Part shown: positions 7,604-41,839 of the stretch, in pieces
Position numbering within the stretch: the stretch's first letter is position 1
Layout of the letters: every line of letters begins with the position of its first letter
DNA from: an uncultured Enterobacteriaceae bacterium
Lineage (GTDB): Bacteria; Pseudomonadota; Gammaproteobacteria; Burkholderiales; SG8-39
Reading direction: 5' to 3'
Length of the DNA: 64,000 bases
NCBI GenBank assembly: GCA_964393745.1
Contig: CAYMVA010000013.1
Location: forward strand, 46,250 to 110,249
Made by a program: the position numbers and the translations under genes
The notes under the pieces: generated by a model
What the model was told of the DNA's origin: nothing
Seen by the model: the letters and a program-made list of their open reading frames with translations, nothing else
Databases searched by the model: none

Positions 7604-9955
7604 TTACCCTGATTCGCGGCGGCGCGCCAGCGCCGCGGAAGAGACCAGCGACAGCGCTGCGCCGAGCGCCACGGTGAGCCCTATGGCGCGCAGCACAGGA
7701 TTCGAGGACGCCGCGAGGGTGCCGAAAGCGATCACAGTGGTGAGGCTGCAGACCAGCACCGAAAGCAGCGTGCGCGAGCGCACCTGCGGGTCGCTCTCTG
7801 GCCGGTTGAAGAACAGCGCGTAGTTGAGGCCGATGCCGAGCACCAGCAGCAGCGCGATCAGGTGAAACACGCTCAGGCGGTGGCCGAGCAACTGCAGCAA
7901 GGCGATGGTGAGGGCGAGCGCTGCGAGCACCGGCGCCAGCACGCGCACGACCTCGCGCAGGCGCCGCAGGCCTGCGGTGAGCACGAGCGCGATCGCGAGC
8001 ATGCCGGCCCCGGTCAGCGTCAGCGACTGCATCCGGTAGCCGGCGATGAGGGCGTTGGACTCCTCCTTCAGGTCGAGCAGTGCGGTGTGCGGCACTGGCT
8101 GCCGTGCGGCCTCGTGCGCCAGCACGCGCGCGTCGCTGACGCCGTTCAGCGGCACCAGCGAGACCCACTGGCCGTCGCTTTGCGCCAGCAGCGATTGGAG
8201 TTTCAGGCCAAGCGCGCTGCCCTGCAGCTGCTCTGCAAGCACCGGGCCGTGGGCCCGGTTCTGCTCCAGCTCGCGCAGGAACGGCTCGAACAAGCCGGGG
8301 CGGAACGGCAGGCCGGCGAGCGCCTGCGCGAGGCTGGCACGCAGCGGCTCCGGCTCGGGCAGCGCCGCCCGCCGCTTCGCCTGCGTGGCGGCGCTAGGCA
8401 AATAGCGCGTTGCGGAATCGTAGCCTGCGATCACCCTGCGCGACACCAGGGAGACCAGCCAGGGCTCGGCCTGCTCGGTGCGCTGCATAGCGAGCTCGCG
8501 AGTGGCGCCGGTGATGACGACCAGCTGGCGCACGTCCGGCGCGCCGAGTTCCGACCGCAGCTGCCGGTCGAGCGCTTTTGCATGCTCGGGAATCGCGCTC
8601 AGGCTGGCGAGATCGTCGTCCCAGACGCGCTCTGCTCGCAGCAGCAGGAATACCGCCGCGAGCGCGCCCAGAACCAGGAACGTGCGGCCAAGCCGGCCGG
8701 CGCCGGCAGCCCACGCGGTGGCGCGTGCAGGGGCCTGGAACCCGCTCGTAGTGACCACGCGCTGCGCGGCGAGGGCGGGAACGACCCAGCGCGTCACCAG
8801 ACCTGCGGCCAGTACGCCGCAGATCAGCAGCAAGCCCAGCTGCGCCAGCCCGCCGAAGCTCGACATCGCCATGGTGACGCCGCCGATCAATGTGGTCAGA
8901 ACGGCCAGGCGCAGCGTCGGCCAGATTCGCTGCAGCGCATCGAGCACCCTTTCTCCGGGTGCCGAGTGGGTGAACACGTAGCTCGGGTAGTCCACCGCCT
9001 CGCCGATCAAAGTGGCGCCGAACGCCAGCGTGACCGCGTGCACCGAGCCAAACGCGAGGCTGACGGCCGCACTTCCAGCCAGCAGGCCGCTCGCAGCGGG
9101 GAGCATGCACAGCAGCACGATCCAGGGCGCACGGTAGACAAACAGCAGGAGGATCAGCACCAGCGCGCCGGCAATGGTGGAAAGCAGCCACGAGTCGCGC
9201 TCGATGCTCGCGCGCGTCTCTACCGCGAACACCGCGGGTCCGGACAAAGTGAGGCGCAACTCGCGGTGCGCGGGATCTTCAGCGAATGCGCTGCGCACCG
9301 ACTCAACGGCTTGCTGCTGCCGCGGGGCGTCGAATCCTCCGGCGACAGTCTCGGCGAGCAGCAGCGCGCGCCGCCCGTCTGGCGAGGACCATACGCCGGA
9401 GCGCGACACTGGACCCTCGGTGCGGATGCGCTCGAGGATGCGGCCGAGTTCGCCGGTGGGATCGCGCGGCAGCGTGGCGCGTGTCAGGGCGCCCGCCGGG
9501 GATGCGAGTTGTTGCAAAGCTGCCTGCAGCCTCTCCCGCAGCGCCTGCGCACTGAAGCGTTCGGCGTCGGCATCCGGGCTCAGCAGATAGCGGTAACCCA
9601 TCAGCAACTCGTAGTCGGCTTCCACTTCACCGGGCTCGCCGTTACGTACACTGACAAACAAGGGACTGCGGCGCAGCGCGGCCGCCAGAGCGCGACTGCC
9701 AGCGGCGCGCGCCTCGGCGTCCGCGCCTTCTATGGCGACGAGGACGATGCGCGAAGTCACGCCGCTGCGCAGTTGCTCGAGAAGCAGTTGCTGATTGCGC
9801 GACGCCGACGGCGGCAGGAACGCGGTTAGGTCGGTCTTGATCTGCGCGTTAGCGAGCAGCCAGGCGCTGGCCGTGAGCGCGAGCAGCCAGACGACCACTG
9901 CCGCGACCGGATAGCTGCGCAGACGCGGAGCCTCGCCGCCGGAGTCAGCGGTCAT
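7604..9955 (-). CDS. MMPL/RND-superfamily membrane exporter
   Basis: 783 aa with two blocks of multiple TM helices separated by large soluble loops. Follows the LolA-like gene with an 11-nt overlap. Confidence 0.8.
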   Translation of the reverse strand: MTADSGGEAPRLRSYPVAAVVVWLLALTASAWLLANAQIKTDLTAFLPPSASRNQQLLLEQLRSGVTSRIVLVAIEGADAEARAAGSRALAAALRRSPLFVSVRNGEPGEVEADYELLMGYRYLLSPDADAERFSAQALRERLQAALQQLASPAGALTRATLPRDPTGELGRILERIRTEGPVSRSGVWSSPDGRRALLLAETVAGGFDAPRQQQAVESVRSAFAEDPAHRELRLTLSGPAVFAVETRASIERDSWLLSTIAGALVLILLLFVYRAPWIVLLCMLPAASGLLAGSAAVSLAFGSVHAVTLAFGATLIGEAVDYPSYVFTHSAPGERVLDALQRIWPTLRLAVLTTLIGGVTMAMSSFGGLAQLGLLLICGVLAAGLVTRWVVPALAAQRVVTTSGFQAPARATAWAAGAGRLGRTFLVLGALAAVFLLLRAERVWDDDLASLSAIPEHAKALDRQLRSELGAPDVRQLVVITGATRELAMQRTEQAEPWLVSLVSRRVIAGYDSATRYLPSAATQAKRRAALPEPEPLRASLAQALAGLPFRPGLFEPFLRELEQNRAHGPVLAEQLQGSALGLKLQSLLAQSDGQWVSLVPLNGVSDARVLAHEAARQPVPHTALLDLKEESNALIAGYRMQSLTLTGAGMLAIALVLTAGLRRLREVVRVLAPVLAALALTIALLQLLGHRLSVFHLIALLLVLGIGLNYALFFNRPESDPQVRSRTLLSVLVCSLTTVIAFGTLAASSNPVLRAIGLTVALGAALSLVSSAALARRRESG

Positions 9956-10517
9956 CGCGCTGGATCGTCATGATGGAGCGATCGCCATTCGCTTCCCGGA
10001 TCTCGATCGAGCCGAGTTGGCTGTCCGTACCGGAGATCCGGATCGCCTGCAGATGCCTGCCGATCTGCGGATCTATCGGCTCGAGCGTCACGACCCAGGC
10101 GGTGCGCGTGCCCGAGAGCGCGACCCGGTAAAAGCGCTGCAGCAGCGACAGATCGCCGGCCAGCGTCGCGCGCAGGCCCTCCACCAGGCCCCAGACCACG
10201 GGATTGCGCTGCACCGGCATGGTTCGCGCCTCGCCGCGCGCCTTGTTCTCCACGGTGAGTGTGTCGCCTTCCACGCTGATGCGCTCCTCGAACGGCGCCA
10301 GCACGTGCTTGGTGATGCGGTCGGGGCGCACGTAGCTGAGCCTGCCGCGGACCTCGAGCGGCGCCGTGAGAATGGCAAGGTGCCGCGTTTCGGTGAAGCT
10401 GGCCTGGCTTGCAGGGACTTCGGCCATGCGCTTCATCAGGGCGCCAAGGTTCCATTCCTCGGCGCGGGCGGCGCTTGCAGCGGCCAGCAGCAGCGCGGCG
10501 ATGGCGAAACTACGCAC
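9945..10517 (-). CDS. LolA-like outer-membrane lipoprotein carrier family protein
   Basis: GTG start gives VRSFAIAALLLAAASAARA (signal peptide). ~190 aa LolA-sized beta protein. Paired with MMPL as in aryl-polyene clusters. Confidence 0.65.
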   Translation of the reverse strand: MRSFAIAALLLAAASAARAEEWNLGALMKRMAEVPASQASFTETRHLAILTAPLEVRGRLSYVRPDRITKHVLAPFEERISVEGDTLTVENKARGEARTMPVQRNPVVWGLVEGLRATLAGDLSLLQRFYRVALSGTRTAWVVTLEPIDPQIGRHLQAIRISGTDSQLGSIEIREANGDRSIMTIQRDDR

Positions 10518-35963: not shown

Positions 35964-35993
35964 AAAACCCGGTCCGCTTGGCCGGGTTTTTTT
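35964..35993 (+). terminator. Rho-independent terminator after purF
   Basis: AAACCCGG-loop-CCGGGTTT followed by a T7 run. Confidence 0.75.
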
Positions 35994-36019
35994 ATTCCCG
36001 CAAGCGAAGGATGGGGATC

Positions 36020-37189
36020 ATGAAAAATTCGCTTGCCACGCTGGGGGTGCGCGCCGGACAGGCCCGCACCGAGTTCCACGAGCACTCCGAGGCGCTGTTC
36101 CTCACCTCGAGCTTCGTGTTCGACAACGCCGCGCAGGCCGCGGCGCGCTTCACCGGCGGCGAGGACGGCTTCGTCTACTCGCGCTTCACCAATCCCACGG
36201 TCGCCATGTTCCAGGACCGGCTCGCGGCGCTGGAAGGGGCGGAGGCCTGCGTCGCCACCGCCTCGGGGATGTCGGCGATCCTCGCCGTGAACATGGCGCT
36301 GCTCAAGTCGGGCGACCATGTGGTTTGTTCGAATGCCGTGTTCGGCGCCACGGTGCAGCTGTATTCAGGGATCCTGGCGCGCTTCGGCATCCAGACCACG
36401 TTCGTTTCCCCGACCGAGATTGGCGACTGGCAGCGGGCGCTGAAACCGAACACCCGGCTGCTTTTTCTGGAGACGCCGTCCAATCCGCTTGGCGTGGTCT
36501 CTGACATCGCGGCGATCGCCGCCGTGGCGAAGAATGCTGGCGCGCTGCTCGCGGTGGACAACGCGCTGTGCACCCCGGCGCTGCAGCGGCCGCTCGAATT
36601 CGGCGCCGACCTGGTGATCCATTCCGCGACCAAGTACCTGGACGGGCAGGGCAGGGTGCTCGGCGGCGCGGTGCTCGGCTCCAAGGCGCTGGTGATGGAC
36701 GGCGTGTTCGGCTTCCTGCGCACTGCGGGGCCGACGCTGTCGGCGTTCAACGCCTGGGTGATCCTGAAGGGCATGGAGACCCTCGAACTCCGCATGTTGG
36801 CGCAATCGGAGCGCGCGCTGGAGTTGGCGCGCTGGCTGGAGGCGCATCCCAAGGTAGCGCGCGTGTTCTATCCCGGCCTGGCATCGCACCCGCAGCACGC
36901 GCTCGCCATGCGCCAGCAGCGCGCCGGCGGCGCGATCGTGTCGTTCGAGGTGCAGGGCGGGCGCGAGGCGGCGTGGAAAGTGGTCGACTCGACGCAACTG
37001 ATCTCGATCACCGGCAACCTCGGCGACGTCAAGACCACCATCACCCATCCGGCCACCACCACCCACGGGCGCATCACGCCCGAGGCGCGCGCCGCGGCCG
37101 GGATTGGCGATGGTCTGCTGCGCGTCGCGGTCGGCCTGGAAGCGGTCGAGGACGTGAAAGCCGACTTGGCGCGGGGGCTGGGCGAATAG
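36020..37189 (+). CDS. metZ: O-succinylhomoserine sulfhydrylase (Cys/Met PLP-dependent family)
   Basis: SRFTNPTV...HSATKYLDGQGR (PLP Lys). ATG 36020 follows AAGGATGGGG; ATG 36011 is an alternative. Confidence 0.88.
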   Translation: MKNSLATLGVRAGQARTEFHEHSEALFLTSSFVFDNAAQAAARFTGGEDGFVYSRFTNPTVAMFQDRLAALEGAEACVATASGMSAILAVNMALLKSGDHVVCSNAVFGATVQLYSGILARFGIQTTFVSPTEIGDWQRALKPNTRLLFLETPSNPLGVVSDIAAIAAVAKNAGALLAVDNALCTPALQRPLEFGADLVIHSATKYLDGQGRVLGGAVLGSKALVMDGVFGFLRTAGPTLSAFNAWVILKGMETLELRMLAQSERALELARWLEAHPKVARVFYPGLASHPQHALAMRQQRAGGAIVSFEVQGGREAAWKVVDSTQLISITGNLGDVKTTITHPATTTHGRITPEARAAAGIGDGLLRVAVGLEAVEDVKADLARGLGE

Positions 37190-37250
37190 AGCCGGGCTGG
37201 AAGGGCCGAAGTGTAAAGTCACGCTTTACACTCTGCCGCGGCGCGCCTGA
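37174..37250 (+). repeat. Copy A of the triplicated metZ-stop/hairpin region
   Basis: GGGCTGGGCGAATAG-AGCCGGGCTGGAAGGGCCGAAGTGTAAAG-TCACG-CTTTACACT. It carries the authentic metZ 3' end and is homologous to 39127-39216 and 40686-40776. Confidence 0.85.
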
Positions 37251-37336
37251 ATTCGCTCGCGAACTCAGGCGCAAAGAAATCGGGCACCGTTTGCAGCGAC
37301 AGGCTCTAAATCAAACTGCTGCTAAAACGGGACTCA

Positions 37337-37375
37337 CGTCGGCTGCGCTGGGTCGTCAGTTCGCGGGCCAATAAG
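37337..37375 (+). pseudogene. Possible 3'-terminal remnant of a paralog of the 40216-40671 lipoprotein gene
   Basis: Encodes ..SAALGRQFAGQ*, compared with ..AAALGRQFAGR* at 40637-40671. About three-quarters nucleotide identity by eye over ~35 nt, with no upstream coding continuity. Confidence 0.35.
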
Positions 37376-37382
37376 AACCGAT

Positions 37383-39014
37383 TTATGCGGCGCCCCTGAG
37401 CCACGTCACCCGTACGCGGTCGTAATCCTGGTCGCGCTCGATCAGCTCTTCGAACCGCACCTGCGTCATCTGCTCGCCCATCATGACTTCGTATTTGAGG
37501 CCGGGGACGAAGCCCTCGCGCTCCAGAAGGATCTCGTGAGGCGTGCCGGAGGCGGCGCTCTCGGCCAGGATCAGCGCGTTCACGAAAGTGAACTTGAACG
37601 ACCCGGAGGAGGTCCGCCAGTTCTCGGCACTCTCAGCACCCTCGCCGAGGCCGCGCAGGTACACCGAAACCGGCTTCTTGGCGAGGATTTCGATTTCGGC
37701 GCGCATGCGCTCCTGCAGGTCGCGTTGCAGGCGCCGGATCGTGCCCAACCACCATGACTTTTGCCCCGCCACCTGGAACACGCATAGCGCGCCGATTTTC
37801 GCCCAGGGCTCGTCCTGGCGCGGGATGTCCACGCCGATTCCCCATGTGCTGCCCTCGTGCTGCATCCATTCGGTGATCACGGCGGTCACCTCCTGGGCCT
37901 GGAGCGCGATGCCGGTCTGCTTTTTCACCTCCAGGCGCTGGTCTTCCGTCATCTCCGCCATGCCGCTGAACTCGATGCGGGTCACCAGCTCGGACGCTGC
38001 GGAGAATCCGTGCGAGACCTTTATTTTTGCCTCGATCTTCACGCGCGGCCCGCGCGGTTCGGGCGGGGAGTCGCCCCAGTAGAGCAGCAGGCGCTTGAGC
38101 ACGAGCAGCTTCTCCGGGATCGTGAAATCGTCTCCGAAGCGCTTTTCCGGCTCCTGCGGGTTGGCGGTGTGGCGGTCTATCACTTCCTGGATCGAGGCGC
38201 CGGCGTCGCCGGCTCCGAAGCAGCGCAGAGTGGCGCTCTGCGCGACCTCCGGCGAGTGACGGATCGGCCGGTTCGGATGGGCGAGATCGATACAGAAGTT
38301 GCACCTCTCCCCGGGCTTCGCCTTGAGAGCGAAGCCGGAAGCCGTCCGCGAGATGATTCGCGCCGAGAGCTCCACCTCGAGCATCCGCTCGGCGTCCGGG
38401 TTGGCCGCGTCCATCATCGGCAGTCGCAGGAATTCCTGGCGCGCATGGCTGTGGAAGGCGTCGCTCGCGTAGGCCTTGATGCGTTCTGCGACGAACCTTT
38501 CCTTTTCGGCCTGGCCGTAGAGCACCGCGAGCTCCTGCCAGATGCGCGGCTTCACCGGCAGGTAGCGGAATTGGAGGAGCTTGCCTTCGTTGGTGAGGGC
38601 GCGGAGTGCGCGCAAAGCCAGGAGCGTGCGCTCCGGATGCACGGCCTCGCCCGGCTTCGCCGCCTGGGCGATCTCCCGGAGGCAGACGCGGTAGGCGGAA
38701 GAAACATGCTCCCAGAACCCGACCAGCGCCTGCCAGAGTTGGAACCGCTCGATCTCCTTGAGCTTGTCGTTGCGCAGGAATTCGGACAGCGCGGCGGCTT
38801 CCCGCTTCTGCCCCGTCTCATCGAGCAGCTTGATCACCCCGATCCGGTCGGAGAGGCCAAATCCGGGGGTCGCGGCGACCGTCTCGAGCGAGGAGGACAC
38901 TTCCTCCACGGCCTTGCCGTGCGCGGCAGGCAGGTCGGCGAGCAACCTGCCCGCCTCCTCGACGTTGTACATCGGATGGTCGGCCTTCTTGCTGCCGCTC
39001 AACCATTCAAGCAT
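37383..39014 (-). CDS. Hypothetical 543-aa cytoplasmic protein (island cargo 1)
   Basis: Long ORF with good codon periodicity and no signal peptide or TM. The N-terminal two-thirds are helical. The C-terminal ~150 aa look like a beta-barrel with a GSTWGIGV-type motif. No family confidently recognised. Confidence 0.7.
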   Translation of the reverse strand: MLEWLSGSKKADHPMYNVEEAGRLLADLPAAHGKAVEEVSSSLETVAATPGFGLSDRIGVIKLLDETGQKREAAALSEFLRNDKLKEIERFQLWQALVGFWEHVSSAYRVCLREIAQAAKPGEAVHPERTLLALRALRALTNEGKLLQFRYLPVKPRIWQELAVLYGQAEKERFVAERIKAYASDAFHSHARQEFLRLPMMDAANPDAERMLEVELSARIISRTASGFALKAKPGERCNFCIDLAHPNRPIRHSPEVAQSATLRCFGAGDAGASIQEVIDRHTANPQEPEKRFGDDFTIPEKLLVLKRLLLYWGDSPPEPRGPRVKIEAKIKVSHGFSAASELVTRIEFSGMAEMTEDQRLEVKKQTGIALQAQEVTAVITEWMQHEGSTWGIGVDIPRQDEPWAKIGALCVFQVAGQKSWWLGTIRRLQRDLQERMRAEIEILAKKPVSVYLRGLGEGAESAENWRTSSGSFKFTFVNALILAESAASGTPHEILLEREGFVPGLKYEVMMGEQMTQVRFEELIERDQDYDRVRVTWLRGAA

Positions 39015-39126
39015 GGCAGGCCCTCCTCGTGGAGCGCCGCCGGCGGCGAATCACCGCAGCGTGATCCACAGGTTACTATGATCGCTGGGTGTCTGGAGCG
39101 AGCGGCGAGCCAGCTTGAGGAACTTT

Positions 39127-39216
39127 CGCTGCGCAGGTAACGCACGGGCTGGCAGGGCAAAAGTGTAAAGTCTGTCTTTACACTTCGCCGAACTGCACCA
39201 GTCGCACCGCAGCGCA
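39127..39216 (+). repeat. Copy B of the triplicated region (degenerate metZ end + hairpin + degenerate lpxH 3' end)
   Basis: CTGCGCAGGTAA..CGGGCTGGCAGGGCAAAAGTGTAAAG-TCTGT-CTTTACACTTCGCCGAACTGCACCAGTCGCACC. The reverse strand reads a pseudo VQFGEV* identical to the lpxH C-terminus. Confidence 0.85.
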
Positions 39217-39362
39217 GCAACCCGGGCGAGCACCGTGTCACGATTCGGTAAGGGCATATTGCACGAATCGCTCGCACCGCCAGTCGATTTCAGCAGACTG
39301 TCTTAAGTTGTCGCGTTTCGGTCTATTATCATTGCGTCAGTGATCTCGAAAGGGAGGTTGCC

Positions 39363-40178
39363 ATGAAACGTCTATTGAGTGTGCTCCTGGTTCTGTTAGG
39401 ACTGGCCGCGTTCCCGGGGCTTATCTATGCAGATCATTCGTGGGGCGCCTATCATTGGGCGCGTACTGGCGGCTCATTCACCTTGAAGCTCGGTGACAAC
39501 GTGTCGAGCGCGTGGGATCCGTACCTCATTGAGGCGTCGAACGATTGGAGCGCCTCTAGCGTGCTTAACACCGTAATCGATACGGGCTTGACTACGCCAA
39601 AGAGGTGCAGGCCCAGCAGCGGGCGCGTGGAAGTTTGCGCTACCACCTATGGCAAAAACGGATGGCTGGGGTTGGCTTCGATCTGGGCGAGCGGGAGCCA
39701 CATCACGCAGGGCACTGCCAAGATGAACGACTCGTACTTCAACACCGCGCCGTACAACACCCCAGCATGGAGACGGCTGGTGATGTGTCAGGAGATCGCC
39801 CACACCTTCGGCCTCGATCACCAGGACGAGAATTTCTCCAACCTGAACTTTGGCAGTTGCATGGACTACACGTCCAACCCGGTCGGCCCGCCCAGCAACG
39901 AGCATCCAAACCAGCATGACTACGATCAACTGGTGACGATTTACGGCGGCCATACCGACACCACCACCACGGCCACCCAGACCAGCGCACAGGGCGCGAT
40001 GCCCCCGGCGATGTCCGACATCGACTTCGAGGGGCCGGGCCAATGGGGCAAGCTCCTCCGTTCGACCAACCGCGGCCGGACCGAGGTGTATGAACTCGAT
40101 TTCGGCGGCGGGCACAAGGTCTTCACCTTCGTCATCTGGGCGGACGAAGAAGACCGCGGACGCGGCAATCGACACTGA
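39363..40178 (+). CDS. Secreted metzincin-like protein with a variant motif QEIAHTFGLDH (island cargo 2)
   Basis: Strong RBS AAGGGAGG and signal peptide MKRLLSVLLVLLGLAAFPGLIYA. The ExxHxxGxxH core has Gln where the first Zn-binding His is expected. AT-richer codons (cta, tta, ttg, agt). Confidence 0.75.
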   Translation: MKRLLSVLLVLLGLAAFPGLIYADHSWGAYHWARTGGSFTLKLGDNVSSAWDPYLIEASNDWSASSVLNTVIDTGLTTPKRCRPSSGRVEVCATTYGKNGWLGLASIWASGSHITQGTAKMNDSYFNTAPYNTPAWRRLVMCQEIAHTFGLDHQDENFSNLNFGSCMDYTSNPVGPPSNEHPNQHDYDQLVTIYGGHTDTTTTATQTSAQGAMPPAMSDIDFEGPGQWGKLLRSTNRGRTEVYELDFGGGHKVFTFVIWADEEDRGRGNRH

Positions 40179-40215
40179 TTGCGCGCGGGCCTCGGGCGCG
40201 TCGTGAGGCCATGGA

Positions 40216-40671
40216 ATGCGGCTGCTTGCAGTCCGCTTGGCTGTGGTCGCAGCGGCTGGTGCCGTTAGCTGCACCTCGAGCGCATCGGGATTAGACCAGC
40301 CTCGGCAGGGTGAGTCGCGCCCAAGCCGCGTGACCGGCTACGCAAGTCTCGCGGCCTACTTGCGTGCCGCGGGCGCAAGCGTCAAGCCGGGAGGGGAAGT
40401 CGATCAGCCATTCTTCCCCGTCACCGGAAAGATGCTCCAAGTCCACGGCGAGGATGTGCAGGTCTTCGAGTTCGCAGCTGCCGCAGTGGCGGATGCGCAG
40501 GCCGCCCGGATCTCGCCGACTGGCGGCACGGTAGGGACGACGAACGTCCATTGGATCGGCTCGCCGCATTTTTACAAGGCGGGAAAACTCCTCGTGCTGT
40601 ACGTGGGAGACAACGACAAGGTGCTGCAAGCACTCGCCGCCGCGCTCGGCCGGCAGTTCGCCGGCAGGTAG
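40216..40671 (+). CDS. Small lipoprotein of unknown function (island cargo 2)
   Basis: Lipobox AAGAVSC. 151 aa. Conserved-looking C-terminal half (VQVFEF...ISP.GG.VGTT.V.W...PHFYK.G.L.VLYVG.ND). Confidence 0.65.
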   Translation: MRLLAVRLAVVAAAGAVSCTSSASGLDQPRQGESRPSRVTGYASLAAYLRAAGASVKPGGEVDQPFFPVTGKMLQVHGEDVQVFEFAAAAVADAQAARISPTGGTVGTTNVHWIGSPHFYKAGKLLVLYVGDNDKVLQALAAALGRQFAGR

Positions 40672-40685
40672 CTGACCTCGGTCTA

Positions 40686-40776
40686 GGGCTGCGCGGGTAG
40701 ACCCGGGCTGGCAGGGCCAAAGTGTAAAGTCAGACTTTACACTTCGCCGAATTGCACCATGCGCACCACGTCGCGC
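40686..40776 (+). repeat. Copy C of the triplicated region (degenerate metZ end + hairpin + authentic lpxH 3' end)
   Basis: GGGCTGCGCGGGTAG-ACCCGGGCTGGCAGGGCCAAAGTGTAAAG-TCAGA-CTTTACACTTCGCCGAATTGCACC. The lpxH stop codon lies in the hairpin arm. Confidence 0.85.
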
Positions 40777-41480
40777 TCGACCGCGAGGTAGCCGCCGCGA
40801 TCGTACCAGTCCGGCAGCACCCAGCGCTCGCAGGCTTTGCCGTCCACCCTGTGCTGGTGGTGCGCCGGGCGGTGGGTGTGGCCGTGGATGAGGCGCGTCA
40901 CGCCCAGCCTGCGGAACGCCTCGCACACCGCGCCCACGTTGGCGTCCATGATCTCGGGCGCTTTGGCGCGTACCGCGGCCTTGCTCTGCTCGCGGTAGCC
41001 GAGCACCGCGACGCGGCGCTGGTCGCGCGGCTTGGCGAGGAACTCCTGCTGCCAGGCCGCCGAGCGGGCGATGTGGCGCCATGCCTGGTAAGGCAAATCG
41101 TCGGTGCACAGCGTGTCGCCGTGCAGCAGCGCGAAGCGCTCGCCATCCAGCTCGGCGACGGCGGGATCGTCGAGCAGCTGCGCGCCGGCGGCGGCGCAAA
41201 AGCGCTCGCCGATGAGGAAGTCGCGGTTGCCGTGCATCAGGCGCAGCGCAACGCCGGCCTCGGAGAGCTGCCGCAGCCCTTGCGCCACTTGCCGCCCAAG
41301 CGGGTCGCCGGGAACGTCCTCCAGTTCGTCGTCGCCGATCCAGTATTCGAACAGGTCGCCCAGGATGTAGAGCGCCTGCGCGTCGCGCGCCTCGTGGCGC
41401 AGGAAACGGATGAACTGCTCGCTGGCCTGCGGGCGCTCCCCTGAAAGGTGCAGGTCGGAGATGAACAGCGCCCGGCTCAC
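40737..41480 (-). CDS. lpxH: UDP-2,3-diacylglucosamine diphosphatase
   Basis: SDLHL...LYILGDLFE.WIGDD...HGNRDFL...HGDTLCTDD...IHGHTHRP metallophosphoesterase motifs match LpxH. GTG start at 41480. Confidence 0.92.
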   Translation of the reverse strand: MSRALFISDLHLSGERPQASEQFIRFLRHEARDAQALYILGDLFEYWIGDDELEDVPGDPLGRQVAQGLRQLSEAGVALRLMHGNRDFLIGERFCAAAGAQLLDDPAVAELDGERFALLHGDTLCTDDLPYQAWRHIARSAAWQQEFLAKPRDQRRVAVLGYREQSKAAVRAKAPEIMDANVGAVCEAFRRLGVTRLIHGHTHRPAHHQHRVDGKACERWVLPDWYDRGGYLAVERDVVRMVQFGEV

Positions 41481-41482
41481 CC

Positions 41483-41839
41483 AGGGACCCTCTGATCAAT
41501 TCACGCGCATGCGCGTTGCGGCCGGAACGCGGCGCCTGCTAGGCGCGAGGCCGCAGCGATATGTCGATATCGCAAGGCCGAGCAACAACGCAGGCGCCCG
41601 TGTAGCCGCGATGACCGTCGCCCGAGATACCGACTTCCGGCCGCAACCCGGGGGCGGCGAGGGCCTCTGTCTTGCACTCCTGCGGCACGGCCTCGCCGCC
41701 CAGAGGGACGGGGCGAGTTTTCGCGCATGGCATCGCCATCGGCCGCCTTGTGGACGTCAAGTACACGGCGGCGTCCGCTGGCTCGCCCTGCACGAAAATC
41801 GCCGCCGTCGCGCACGCGGGAATTGATCAGAGGGTCCCT
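41483..41839 (-). mobile_element. MITE-like structured intergenic element, copy 2 (357 bp, perfect 20-bp TIR AGGGACCCTCTGATCAATTC)
   Basis: Inverted homolog of 33419-33846. It fills the ppiA-stop to lpxH-start spacer, leaving 2 nt on each side. Confidence 0.8.

What the first reader, a model, noticed from the sequence alone, without database searches (positions are those of the whole stretch)
37174..40776. Accessory island between metZ and lpxH, bounded and subdivided by three direct copies of the ancestral convergent intergenic region
Three ~80-90 bp direct repeats (37174-37250, 39127-39216, 40686-40776) share this layout: a metZ-like 3' end with a stop (GGGCTG.GC...TAG/TAA), then CCGGGCTGG(A/C)AGGGC..AAGTGTAAAG, a 5-nt loop, CTTTACACT, and then the reverse complement of the lpxH 3' end.
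- Copy A keeps the authentic metZ end and diverges on the lpxH side.
- Copy C keeps the authentic lpxH end (its TAA sits in the hairpin arm) and has a degenerate metZ end.
- Copy B is degenerate on both sides, yet still encodes a pseudo ...VQFGEV* on the reverse strand, identical to the LpxH C-terminus.

This is the footprint expected if circular DNA carrying a copy of this region integrated twice (Campbell-type or site-specific) at the bidirectional terminator hairpin. That would have created two cargo modules: the 543-aa gene (A-B) and the metzincin-like gene plus lipoprotein (B-C).

No integrase, transposase or tRNA is present. The B-C module is compositionally foreign. My hand count is about 50% G+C over 39241-39360 and about 53% over 39421-39480, against a visibly much higher background, and it uses rare cta/tta/agt codons.
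Basis: seen in the sequence. Interest (0 to 1): 0.7.

Follow-up and report, generated by a model that had tools for sequence, protein, structure and literature searches.

The report
Recombination scars at gene-insertion hotspot
The three repeats are real copies of the native metZ–lpxH gene junction, left when ordinary recombination reshuffled three long-resident accessory genes at a recombinase-free insertion hotspot; it is a clear example of a known process, not a new mobile element.

Summary
Three direct copies of a spacer plus hairpin (AAGTGTAAAG-N5-CTTTACACT) lie at 37159-37238, 39126-39221 and 40670-40776 and nowhere else in the window. A relative with an empty site (L166) shows metZ stop, 19-nt spacer, one hairpin and the lpxH stop in the hairpin arm, so this is the ancestral junction. 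Against it, the 3.45-kb island is bracketed by a 64-nt duplication (copies A and C).

The cargo is not newly acquired. Relatives carry orf271-orf151 alone (L169, L175) or orf271-orf151-orf543 (L082, L083, L177) at this junction, each with one hairpin. The window's order, orf543 then orf271-orf151, is a circular permutation of that block. A fossil of the orf151 3' end still abuts orf543. Copy B joins the orf543-linked hairpin and 32 nt of pseudo-lpxH to the upstream region of orf271.

Junction positions differ between genomes, the hairpin loops differ, and no recombinase or tRNA is present. The hairpin occurs only at lpxH across 1.9 Mb of relatives.

Most likely, two duplicative single-crossover (Campbell-type) or unequal-exchange events used junction homology to reassort alleles of one hotspot. 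Site-specific integration at the hairpin is not supported. Interest is modest.

The parts
35978..37189 (+). metZ (O-succinylhomoserine sulfhydrylase), the left core flank. Its start codon is uncertain; relatives are called at 389 aa.
   Evidence: NCBIfam NF006003 equivalog, 699 bits. Pfam Cys_Met_Meta_PP. Collinear with L166, L082 and L083.
37159..37238 (+). Copy A: the authentic last ~30 nt of metZ with stop TAG (37187-37189), the 19-nt spacer (37190-37208), and the hairpin (37209-37233, loop TCACG).
   Evidence: Collinear with the empty-site relative L166 up to 37238. 28/34 identical to the L166 metZ end.
37239..37341 (.). Filler of unknown origin between hairpin A and the orf151 fossil. It contains its own 14-bp palindrome at 37243-37272.
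   Evidence: No homolog in the window or in any fetched locus. Not lpxH-like (11/34).
37342..37374 (+). Fossil of the orf151 3' end (...GRQFAGQ*, stop TAA at 37372-37374), 8 nt from the orf543 stop, exactly as in L082 and L083.
   Evidence: blastn collinearity of window 37342-39085 with L082. 32/33 identical to the L082 orf151 end, but only about 24/33 to the window's own orf151 end.
37383..39014 (-). orf543, a FimW-like protein (cargo module 1).
   Evidence: Precomputed PF27104 FimW_N and PF27125 FimW_C. More than 100 full-length homologs. 93.7% nt identity to L082. No hit in the local Pfam, NCBIfam or PDB searches.
39126..39221 (+). Copy B: the orf543-linked spacer, the hairpin (39161-39185, loop TCTGT), and a ~32-nt pseudo-lpxH 3' end (39185-39216). 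It is joined at about 39217-39221 to the region upstream of orf271.
   Evidence: The left part is orthologous to the orf543-upstream/hairpin region of L082 and L083. The right flank is 25/34 identical to lpxH.
39221..39362 (+). Region upstream of orf271. It is orthologous to a decayed pseudo-copy of metZ positions about -130 to -70 that is seen in L082 and L083.
   Evidence: Collinear with L082. The pseudo-metZ is significant in L082 (59 nt, 80-81%, E=1e-8) and in L083 (42 nt, 71%). It is not detectable against the window's own metZ.
39363..40178 (+). orf271: a secreted protein with an invariant QExxHxxGLxH motif (cargo module 2, gene 1).
   Evidence: Only sub-threshold Reprolysin_4/5 hits, E 0.05-0.09.
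40216..40671 (+). orf151: a probable lipoprotein (cargo module 2, gene 2). Its last codon and stop differ from those of all relatives.
   Evidence: Always adjacent to orf271 in relatives.
40670..40776 (+). Copy C: a ~30-nt pseudo-metZ 3' end (40672-40700, pseudo-stop TAG at 40698-40700), the spacer, the hairpin (40720-40744, loop TCAGA), and the authentic lpxH 3' end.
   Evidence: 22/34 identical to the metZ end, P<2e-5. Collinear with L166 from 40686. Confirmed by independent contigs L182-184.
40737..41480 (-). lpxH (UDP-2,3-diacylglucosamine diphosphatase), the right core flank. Its stop lies inside the hairpin's right arm.
   Evidence: NCBIfam NF003743 equivalog, 288 bits.

Best explanation
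The metZ/lpxH convergent junction is an insertion hotspot with no recombinase in this betaproteobacterial lineage. Its native form is metZ stop, a 19-nt spacer, one conserved hairpin, and the lpxH stop in the hairpin arm.

Two accessory modules have lived at this junction for a long time in the genus. One is orf271-orf151. The other, orf543 (FimW-like), arrived later.

In the window's lineage the locus was rebuilt by two duplicative recombination events. These were single-crossover (Campbell-type) integration of circularised DNA, or the equivalent unequal exchange. The homology used was the ~45-95 nt native junction: the metZ tail, spacer, hairpin and lpxH tail. Each event added one more copy of that junction.

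- One event placed orf271-orf151 between a copy carrying a pseudo-lpxH tail (now the right half of B) and a copy carrying a pseudo-metZ tail (C).
- The other inserted an orf543 segment into the left copy. That segment came from an L082/L083-type allele and still carries the last 33 nt of orf151. This created copy A and the left half of B.

Shown:
- the anatomy of the copies
- the empty site
- the graded states of the junction in relatives
- the circular permutation of gene order
- the gene-end fossils
- the locus-specificity of the hairpin

Inferred:
- the order and number of events
- the circular intermediates
- that host homologous and illegitimate recombination, not a dedicated enzyme, did the joining

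Today the hairpin copies probably act only as gene-end or RNA-stabilising stem-loops. This is an inference: the left arm is invariant across lineages while the spacer and loop vary.
For: - **Empty site.** L166-168 have a single hairpin. The window is collinear with L166 over about 25 kb, and 64 nt of L166 align to both A and C.
- **Graded states, all with exactly one hairpin at lpxH.** L180 has an 85-nt palindromic insert. L169-176 have orf271-orf151 only. L083, L084 and L177 have orf271-orf151-orf543. L082 adds an ABC/MFS block. L178/179 have another gene and a broken hairpin.
- **Segment map.** The window island equals the L082 segment [pseudo-metZ, 271, 151, 543, spacer, hairpin, lpxH+40] cut in the orf151 3' end and circularly permuted, with a 27-nt overlap.
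- **orf151 fossil.** It is 32/33 identical to L082 but about 24/33 to the window's own orf151. C's left flank is closer to the true metZ end (22/34) than to B's left flank (15/34). Both results argue for distinct alleles rather than one intragenomic duplication.
- **Heterogeneous junction positions**.
- **Locus-specific hairpin.** It is found only at the lpxH stop across 1.9 Mb of loci.
- **No recombinase or tRNA**. In L166 and L082, no recombinase family is listed within 10 kb of the junction.
- **Hotspot.** 41 of 89 related loci carry inserts of 0.3-10 kb of unrelated ordinary genes at this junction.
- **Literature.** Many HGT hotspots lack mobile-element genes and evolve by recombination at flanking core genes (PMC5635113). 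Anchor-mediated insertion that leaves displaced gene 3' ends is described in PMC5361080.
Against: - No sampled genome shows the predicted intermediate, namely orf271-orf151 flanked by two junction copies without orf543.
- The allele arguments rest on 27-34 nt stretches (P about 0.02-0.04 for the orf151 fossil).
- orf271 and orf151 evolve faster than core genes in every comparison, so the lower identity of that module is not proof of import.
- A circularised chromosomal fragment is a rare substrate, and 45-95 nt is short for RecA-mediated crossover.
- The ~103-nt filler after hairpin A and the 46-48 nt extra before hairpin B are unexplained.
- The pseudo-metZ left edge is the same (-110/-112) in copy B and in L083/L175. 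This needs an extra assumption, a deletion at a CCGGGC microhomology.
Confidence: 0.55

Rival explanations
1. A purely intrachromosomal rearrangement. An ancestor with the L083-type block underwent tandem duplication of the whole island, by unequal exchange between junction copies or by illegitimate or template-switch replication. Two deletions then removed the first orf271-orf151 and the second orf543. This left a circularly permuted order, with copy B as the duplication joint.
For: - The gene order is an exact circular permutation with a 27-nt overlap at the breakpoint.
- Copy B reads as the right end of the block (hairpin plus lpxH+32) fused to its left end (the pseudo-metZ upstream of orf271).
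- No foreign DNA is needed.
- Filler DNA at junctions is typical of template-switch events.
Against: - The two orf151 3' ends should have started identical. Instead the fossil is 32/33 to L082 and about 24/33 to the resident gene.
- C's left flank should be a copy of B's left flank. Instead it is closer to the true metZ end (22/34 against 15/34).
- The metZ-spacer-hairpin contiguity seen in A and C exists only in empty-site genomes, not in L083-type genomes.
- At least three events are required.
Confidence: 0.22
2. The hairpin is a dedicated recombination site for a recombinase encoded elsewhere in the host genome (Xer-like, integron-like or other). The two modules would be cassettes that excise as circles and reinsert at any hairpin copy, in the manner of IMEX elements or dif modules.
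For: - The modules are bounded by a conserved 10-5-10 palindrome that is relatively A+T-rich in a ~67% G+C genome and has no U-tract.
- The two modules vary independently between genomes, and their order is permuted.
- No recombinase is needed in cis.
- The stems are invariant across lineages while the spacer and loop vary.
Against: - Relatives that carry the modules have only one hairpin, so the modules are not hairpin-bounded there.
- Junctions lie at many different positions, mostly outside the hairpin.
- The three central loops differ, which would block strand exchange by a tyrosine recombinase.
- The hairpin is never seen away from lpxH in 1.9 Mb.
- By inspection there is no resemblance to the dif 11-6-11 consensus or to the attC GTTRRRY cores.
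- The right arm is constrained simply by encoding the LpxH C-terminus and stop.
Confidence: 0.07
3. The repeat is a dispersed REP/MITE-like element that spread into the island. The flank similarity to metZ and lpxH would then be coincidental.
For: - The sequence is palindromic.
- A different REP/MITE-like palindrome sits at the same insertion point in L180.
- A MITE-like element lies next to lpxH in the window.
Against: - The hairpin occurs only at this locus in the window and only at the lpxH stop in relatives.
- The flank homologies are statistically significant and in register with the stop codons.
Confidence: 0.02

Closest known systems
Integrase-free horizontal-transfer hotspots between conserved core genes (Oliveira, Touchon, Cury and Rocha 2017, PMC5635113)
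   Same: - Variable accessory content sits between the same two core genes across relatives.
- Empty sites coexist with filled ones.
- No mobile-element genes are present.
- Turnover is attributed to host recombination that uses flanking homology.
   Different: The classical model is double crossover in the flanking genes, which leaves no scars. Here the junction itself is triplicated and gene-end fossils are preserved. That implies single-crossover or unequal duplicative events plus illegitimate joints.
Homology-facilitated illegitimate recombination and 'sequential displacement' arrays (Vibrio T6SS effector-immunity modules, PMC5361080; rhs C-terminal displacement cited there)
   Same: - A conserved anchor next to a variable region is used.
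- Successive insertions push older material along.
- Orphaned 3' gene ends are left behind as fossils.
   Different: - Those arrays grow in one direction from a 5' anchor inside a gene and concern toxin-immunity pairs.
- Here the anchor is an intergenic hairpin region between convergent housekeeping genes, and the anchor itself is duplicated.
- A strict linear-fragment event of this kind cannot duplicate its anchor, so a circular donor or a sister-chromatid exchange is needed.
Campbell-type (single-crossover) integration of circular DNA
   Same: The inserted DNA is flanked by direct repeats of the shared homologous segment (64 nt between A and C). Tandem events give n+1 copies.
   Different: No replicon, phage or plasmid functions are present. 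The homology is only ~45-95 nt. The circles, if any, would be circularised chromosomal fragments from sister alleles of the same locus.
Modules mobilised by host XerC/D (IMEX elements, dif modules)
   Same: Cargo modules without their own recombinase are bounded by short palindromic sites. Module order can vary.
   Different: - There is no dif-like 11-6-11 sequence.
- The central regions are not identical.
- Junctions fall outside the palindrome.
- Relatives carry the modules with a single palindrome.
- Membership is not supported.

Membership tests
Integrase-free HGT hotspot flanked by core genes | Different accessory gene content between the same two orthologous core genes in related genomes | tested here: met
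   There are at least seven states of the metZ/lpxH junction within the genus-level clade. 41 of 89 related loci carry inserts of 0.3-10 kb of unrelated genes.
Integrase-free HGT hotspot flanked by core genes | Empty sites exist in relatives | tested here: met
   L166-168 have a 36-nt spacer with a single hairpin. 48 of 89 loci have gaps of 166 nt or less.
Integrase-free HGT hotspot flanked by core genes | No integrase, transposase or other mobile-element gene in the spot | tested here: met
   No recombinase family matched the cargo ORFs. None is listed within 10 kb in L166 or L082. The window has no tRNA.
Integrase-free HGT hotspot flanked by core genes | Elevated homologous recombination or phylogenetic incongruence in the flanking core genes | tested here: inconclusive
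   Module identity matrices disagree on which genomes are closest, but only 3-6 genomes are available.
Campbell-type / duplicative single-crossover integration | Insert flanked by direct repeats of a segment that is single-copy in the empty site | tested here: met
   L166 positions 9950-10013 (64 nt) align both to window ...37238 and to window 40686.... A and C are 79% identical over 80 nt.
Campbell-type / duplicative single-crossover integration | A circular donor molecule carrying the homologous segment | not testable with these tools
   This needs read-level or PCR evidence for circular joints. Only the circular permutation of gene order hints at it.
Site-specific integrative element (attL/attR plus integrase) | A cognate tyrosine or serine recombinase encoded in or next to the element | tested here: not met
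Site-specific integrative element (attL/attR plus integrase) | Crossover at one fixed position, with an identical core in all att copies | tested here: not met
   The loops are TCACG, TCTGT and TCAGA. Junctions fall at six different positions relative to the hairpin across genomes.
Integron cassette array (attC sites) | Imperfect palindromes with RYYYAAC...GTTRRRY core sites after each cassette, plus intI/attI | tested here: not met
   No such cores appear in the three copies on direct reading. No integrase was found. The copies are near-identical in sequence rather than conserved only in structure.
XerC/D dif-module / IMEX | A 28-bp dif-like site (11-nt XerC arm, 6-nt centre, 11-nt XerD arm) at the module boundaries | tested here: not met
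   The palindrome is 10-5-10 and shows no similarity to the dif consensus as I recall it. The consensus comes from memory, not from a database search.
REP / BIME / MITE dispersed repeat | Many copies dispersed in intergenic regions of the genome | tested here: not met
   It occurs only at this locus in 64 kb and only at the lpxH stop in 1.9 Mb of related loci. The complete genome was not available.
Intrinsic (Rho-independent) bidirectional terminator | A G+C-rich stem followed by a U-tract | tested here: not met
   The consensus scan does not call the hairpins. The stem is relatively A+T-rich, and at most UUU follows it on the lpxH strand. Function as a non-canonical terminator or RNA-end stabiliser remains possible.

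The most novel reading that the evidence does not exclude
The conserved 10-5-10 palindrome overlapping the lpxH stop is a genuine recombination site used by a recombinase encoded elsewhere in the host genome. On this reading, orf543 and orf271-orf151 are integrase-less cassettes that excise as circles and reinsert at any copy of the site. That would be a chromosomal, gene-end-anchored analogue of dif modules or IMEX elements. It would explain why module order is permuted between sister lineages, and why the left arm of the hairpin stays invariant while everything around it drifts.
Probability: 0.07. Interest if true: 0.7.

Novelty: new member of a known kind. Interest (0 to 1): 0.3.

Why it matters
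Most horizontal-transfer hotspots that lack mobile-element genes are explained by clean double crossovers in the flanking core genes, which leave no trace. This locus keeps the traces:
- a triplicated native junction
- four gene-end fossils: the orf151 tail, the lpxH tail, and two metZ tails
- a series of relatives running from an empty site to one module, two modules, and two permuted modules

It is therefore a readable worked example of how host recombination alone can add, move and reorder accessory genes between two essential genes without disrupting either. It does not reveal a new mechanism or element. Its value is as a case study and as a caution: 'direct repeats flanking cargo' does not by itself imply a site-specific mobile element.

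Tried and rejected
- **LpxH-anchored scans** of genome contigs and metagenome contigs returned only relatives with 66% identity or less and no cargo genes. Close relatives had to be reached through protein homolog searches plus contig look-ups.
- **Rfam** (E up to 1) found nothing at the repeats.
- **The promoter/terminator consensus scan** did not call the hairpins.
- **Whole-repeat folds** gave only modest z-scores (-1.3 to -3.6), so I did not pursue an extended attC-like structure.
- **The filler at 37239-37341** has no homolog anywhere.
- **The pseudo-metZ upstream of orf271** is not detectable against the window's own metZ. It is claimed only by collinearity with L082 and L083.
- **Import of the orf271-orf151 module from a distant lineage** was considered. 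It was dropped as unproven, because that module evolves faster than core genes in every pair.
- **The AlphaFold model of orf271** from a 26-sequence alignment had pLDDT 51, so no fold search was run. PDB sequence searches for orf271 and orf543 gave nothing meaningful.
- **The alternative home of the orf543 family** (L085, next to lpdA and sox genes) has no counterpart in the window beyond orf543 itself.
- **My first left-flank test** was one base out of register for copy C and was redone.


Full report
**1. The observation**

The region contains three direct copies of a spacer (CGGGCTGG[A/C]AGGGC) followed by a 10-5-10 hairpin (AAGTGTAAAG-N5-CTTTACACT). They lie at about 37159-37238 (A), 39126-39221 (B) and 40670-40776 (C). 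The hairpin occurs only at these three places in the 64-kb window, against none expected from shuffles. B and C are 87% identical over 71 nt. A and C are 79% identical over 80 nt.

I tested the flank claims ungapped, in the register set by the hairpin, against 50,000 random windows of the same sequence.
- The 34 nt ending at the pseudo-stop of C match the true metZ end at 22/34 (P<2e-5).
- The 34 nt after hairpin B match the lpxH end at 25/34 (P<5e-5). On the reverse strand they read ...VQFGEV*.
- The right flank of A is not lpxH-like (11/34).
- The metZ-like left flank of B is only marginal (13/34 and 15/34).

metZ and lpxH are confirmed by NCBIfam equivalog models. The three ORFs between them have no Pfam or NCBIfam hit above threshold. 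The window has no tRNA. G+C falls to 0.54-0.60 over 39150-39750. Contigs assembled independently from four other sequencing runs reproduce the B and C junctions, one of them as a 98.2% strain variant. The layout is therefore not an assembly artefact.

**2. The repeat unit is the native junction**

The arrangement ppi-lpxH converging on metZ-purF is conserved widely in uncultured Betaproteobacteria. The closest informative relatives were reached through protein homologs and their contigs.

L166-168 (LpxH 73% identical) have an empty site. It reads metZ TAG, 19-nt spacer, one hairpin (AAGTGTAAAG-TGTGA-CTTTACACT), and the lpxH stop inside the right arm. The window is collinear with L166 over about 25 kb. 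L166 positions 9950-10013 (64 nt: the last ~30 nt of metZ, the spacer and the hairpin) align both to the end of copy A (...37238) and to the start of copy C (40686...). Relative to an empty site, the island is therefore a 3447-nt insertion bracketed by a 64-nt direct duplication, with a third copy inside.

Across 1.9 Mb of fetched loci the hairpin is found only at the lpxH stop. It appears only in relatives with LpxH identity of 73% or more, and once per genome. It is not a dispersed REP. In six lineages the left arm is invariant in five, while the adjacent spacer and the loop vary freely. This suggests the stem-loop is functional. It is not a canonical intrinsic terminator and matches no Rfam family.

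**3. The cargo is old and shared**

The same junction in graded relatives shows a series of states.
- L180 (LpxH 81%): an 85-nt REP/MITE-like palindrome between the metZ stop and the spacer.
- L169-174 (74%) and L175/176 (78%): [pseudo-metZ, orf271, orf151] between the metZ stop and the spacer-hairpin, with no orf543.
- L083, L084 and L177 (about 90%): metZ, pseudo-metZ, orf267, orf151, then 8 nt, then orf543 on the opposite strand, its upstream region, spacer-hairpin and lpxH.
- L082 (91%): the same, plus a five-gene ABC peptide transporter and an MFS gene between metZ and the pseudo-metZ, and a truncated orf151.
- L178/179 (85%): a different gene directly after lpxH, with the left arm of the hairpin lost.

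All of these have exactly one hairpin.

Core genes of L082 and L083 are 90-93% identical to the window at the nucleotide level. orf543 is 89-94% identical, and orf271 and orf151 are 80-87%. The latter two evolve faster in every pair, so the lower identity and lower G+C of the B-C module do not show that it is recent or foreign. It is in fact the older resident, present in both subclades.

In more distant relatives, 41 of 89 loci carry 0.3-10 kb of other ordinary genes at this junction. These include a recurrent MASE1-PAS histidine kinase, a HAMP-cyclase, a patatin, an ABC ATPase and a TPR protein. None is a recombinase. The junction is a hotspot.

**4. What is special in the window**

A segment-by-segment comparison shows how the window island relates to L082. 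It is the contiguous L082 segment [pseudo-metZ, 271, 151, 543, spacer, hairpin, first ~40 nt of lpxH], cut within the last codons of orf151 and circularly permuted. About 27 nt are present at both ends.

Consistent with this:
- A 33-nt fossil of the orf151 3' end (...GRQFAGQ*, 37342-37374) still sits 8 nt from the orf543 stop, exactly as in L082 and L083.
- Copy B is the orf543-linked spacer-hairpin with 32 nt of pseudo-lpxH, fused at about 39217-39221 to the sequence that lies upstream of orf271 in all relatives.
- Copy A is the authentic metZ end with spacer and hairpin, followed by ~103 nt of filler with no homolog anywhere.
- Copy C is orf151, with its last codon and stop changed, joined to a 30-nt pseudo-metZ end, spacer, hairpin and the authentic lpxH.

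**5. Mechanism**

Site-specific recombination at the hairpin is not supported.
- Junctions across genomes fall at metZ stop +0-2 (L169, L175, L083, L180), metZ -30 (C), metZ -110 to -145 (left edges of the pseudo-metZ), the right edge of the hairpin (A), lpxH +32 (B), and inside the hairpin (L178).
- The three loops differ.
- Relatives carry the modules without flanking hairpins.
- No recombinase is nearby.

A direct duplication of a segment that is single-copy in the empty site is the signature of a single-crossover (Campbell-type) or unequal exchange. A linear double crossover cannot duplicate its own anchor.

Two small observations disfavour a purely intragenomic route of tandem duplication followed by deletions.
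- The orf151 fossil is 32/33 identical to L082 but only about 24/33 to the window's own orf151 end.
- C's pseudo-metZ flank is closer to the real metZ end (22/34) than to B's left flank (15/34). Under that model, C's and B's left flanks should have been duplicates.

I therefore favour two duplicative recombination events that used the 45-95 nt native junction as homology and reassorted alleles of the same locus. One event gave orf271-orf151 flanked by a copy with a pseudo-lpxH tail and a copy with a pseudo-metZ tail. The other inserted a circularised orf543 fragment from an L082/L083-type allele into the left copy. This is inference. The intermediate was not found, and the allele arguments rest on short stretches. 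The intrachromosomal model remains a serious rival.

**6. Comparison with what is known**

The locus fits the class of horizontal-transfer hotspots that lack mobile-element genes and are thought to evolve by host recombination at flanking core genes (PMC5635113). Its fossils recall anchor-mediated 'sequential displacement' by homology-facilitated illegitimate recombination in Vibrio T6SS clusters and in rhs loci (PMC5361080).

It fails the tested defining features of the following:
- site-specific integrative elements
- integron cassettes
- dif modules
- REP elements
- canonical terminators

Details are in the membership table.

**7. Verdict**

The ideas of hairpin-targeted or site-specific integration, and of two foreign circles, are not supported.

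The feature is a well-preserved example of a known process, so it is a new member of a known kind with modest interest. The residual novel possibility is a host-recombinase site defining integrase-less cassettes. I put it at about 7%.

Noticed in passing
window 41483-41839: A MITE-like 357-nt element with 25-nt terminal inverted repeats (AGGGACCCTCTGATCAATTCACGCG and its reverse complement) sits between the lpxH start (41480) and the ppi stop (41842). L082, L083 and L166 have only 4 nt there. No other copy exists in the window or in the 184 fetched loci.
   Followed up: partly
window 39363-40178 (orf271): This secreted ~270-aa protein belongs to a very large family (at least 8,000 hits). Members are still 65-70% identical in Acidobacteria, Terriglobales and 'Xenobia' MAGs, and there is no Pfam domain. 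The family has an invariant C-Q-E-x-x-H-x-x-G-L-x-H-Q motif, in which Gln replaces the first His of the metzincin HExxHxxGxxH. The AlphaFold model was poor (pLDDT 51).
   Followed up: partly
window 37383-39014 (orf543); L082:1399-3651; L166:4659-7133: orf543 carries precomputed FimW_N and FimW_C hits (FimW is a c-di-GMP-binding regulator of type IV pili). In this genus it has landed four genes away from a FimV_N-domain gene upstream of ppi-lpxH. In a 73% homolog (L085) the gene sits at an unrelated locus next to lpdA and sox genes.
   Followed up: no
L180:1565-1680 (between lpxH and metZ): An ~85-nt REP/MITE-like palindrome (CTGTCGTCCCCGCG...CGCGGGGACGACAG) is inserted at exactly the same point (metZ stop / spacer) where orf271-orf151 sits in other relatives.
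   Followed up: no
window hairpin loops 37219-37223, 39171-39175, 40730-40734, and relatives: The stems are invariant, but the 5-nt loops look like flipped versions of one another between copies and lineages. A is TCACG, against TGTGA (reverse complement TCACA) in L166 and L083. B is TCTGT, against TCAGA in C. This suggests loop inversion by intrastrand template switching.
   Followed up: no
window 40737-40748 and relatives' lpxH 3' ends: In the clade with the hairpin, LpxH ends ...FG-x-V*, with the Val and stop codons forming part of the hairpin's right arm. Relatives with 66% identity or less end ...LVSF* without it. The hairpin therefore coincides with a 3-residue C-terminal extension.
   Followed up: no
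L013, L015, L019, L117, L119, L136 (between lpxH and metZ): A homologous MASE1-PAS-HisKA-HATPase sensor kinase recurs at the same metZ/lpxH junction in several more distant relatives. Other relatives carry a HAMP-adenylate cyclase (L003/L089) or a patatin (L133).
   Followed up: partly
L085:1006-1122: Three tandem 39-nt repeats (CCCCCACCCCCCCTTTGCTAAAGGGGGGCG...) lie inside or next to the lpdA-like gene of the contig that carries the orf543 homolog at its alternative locus.
   Followed up: no
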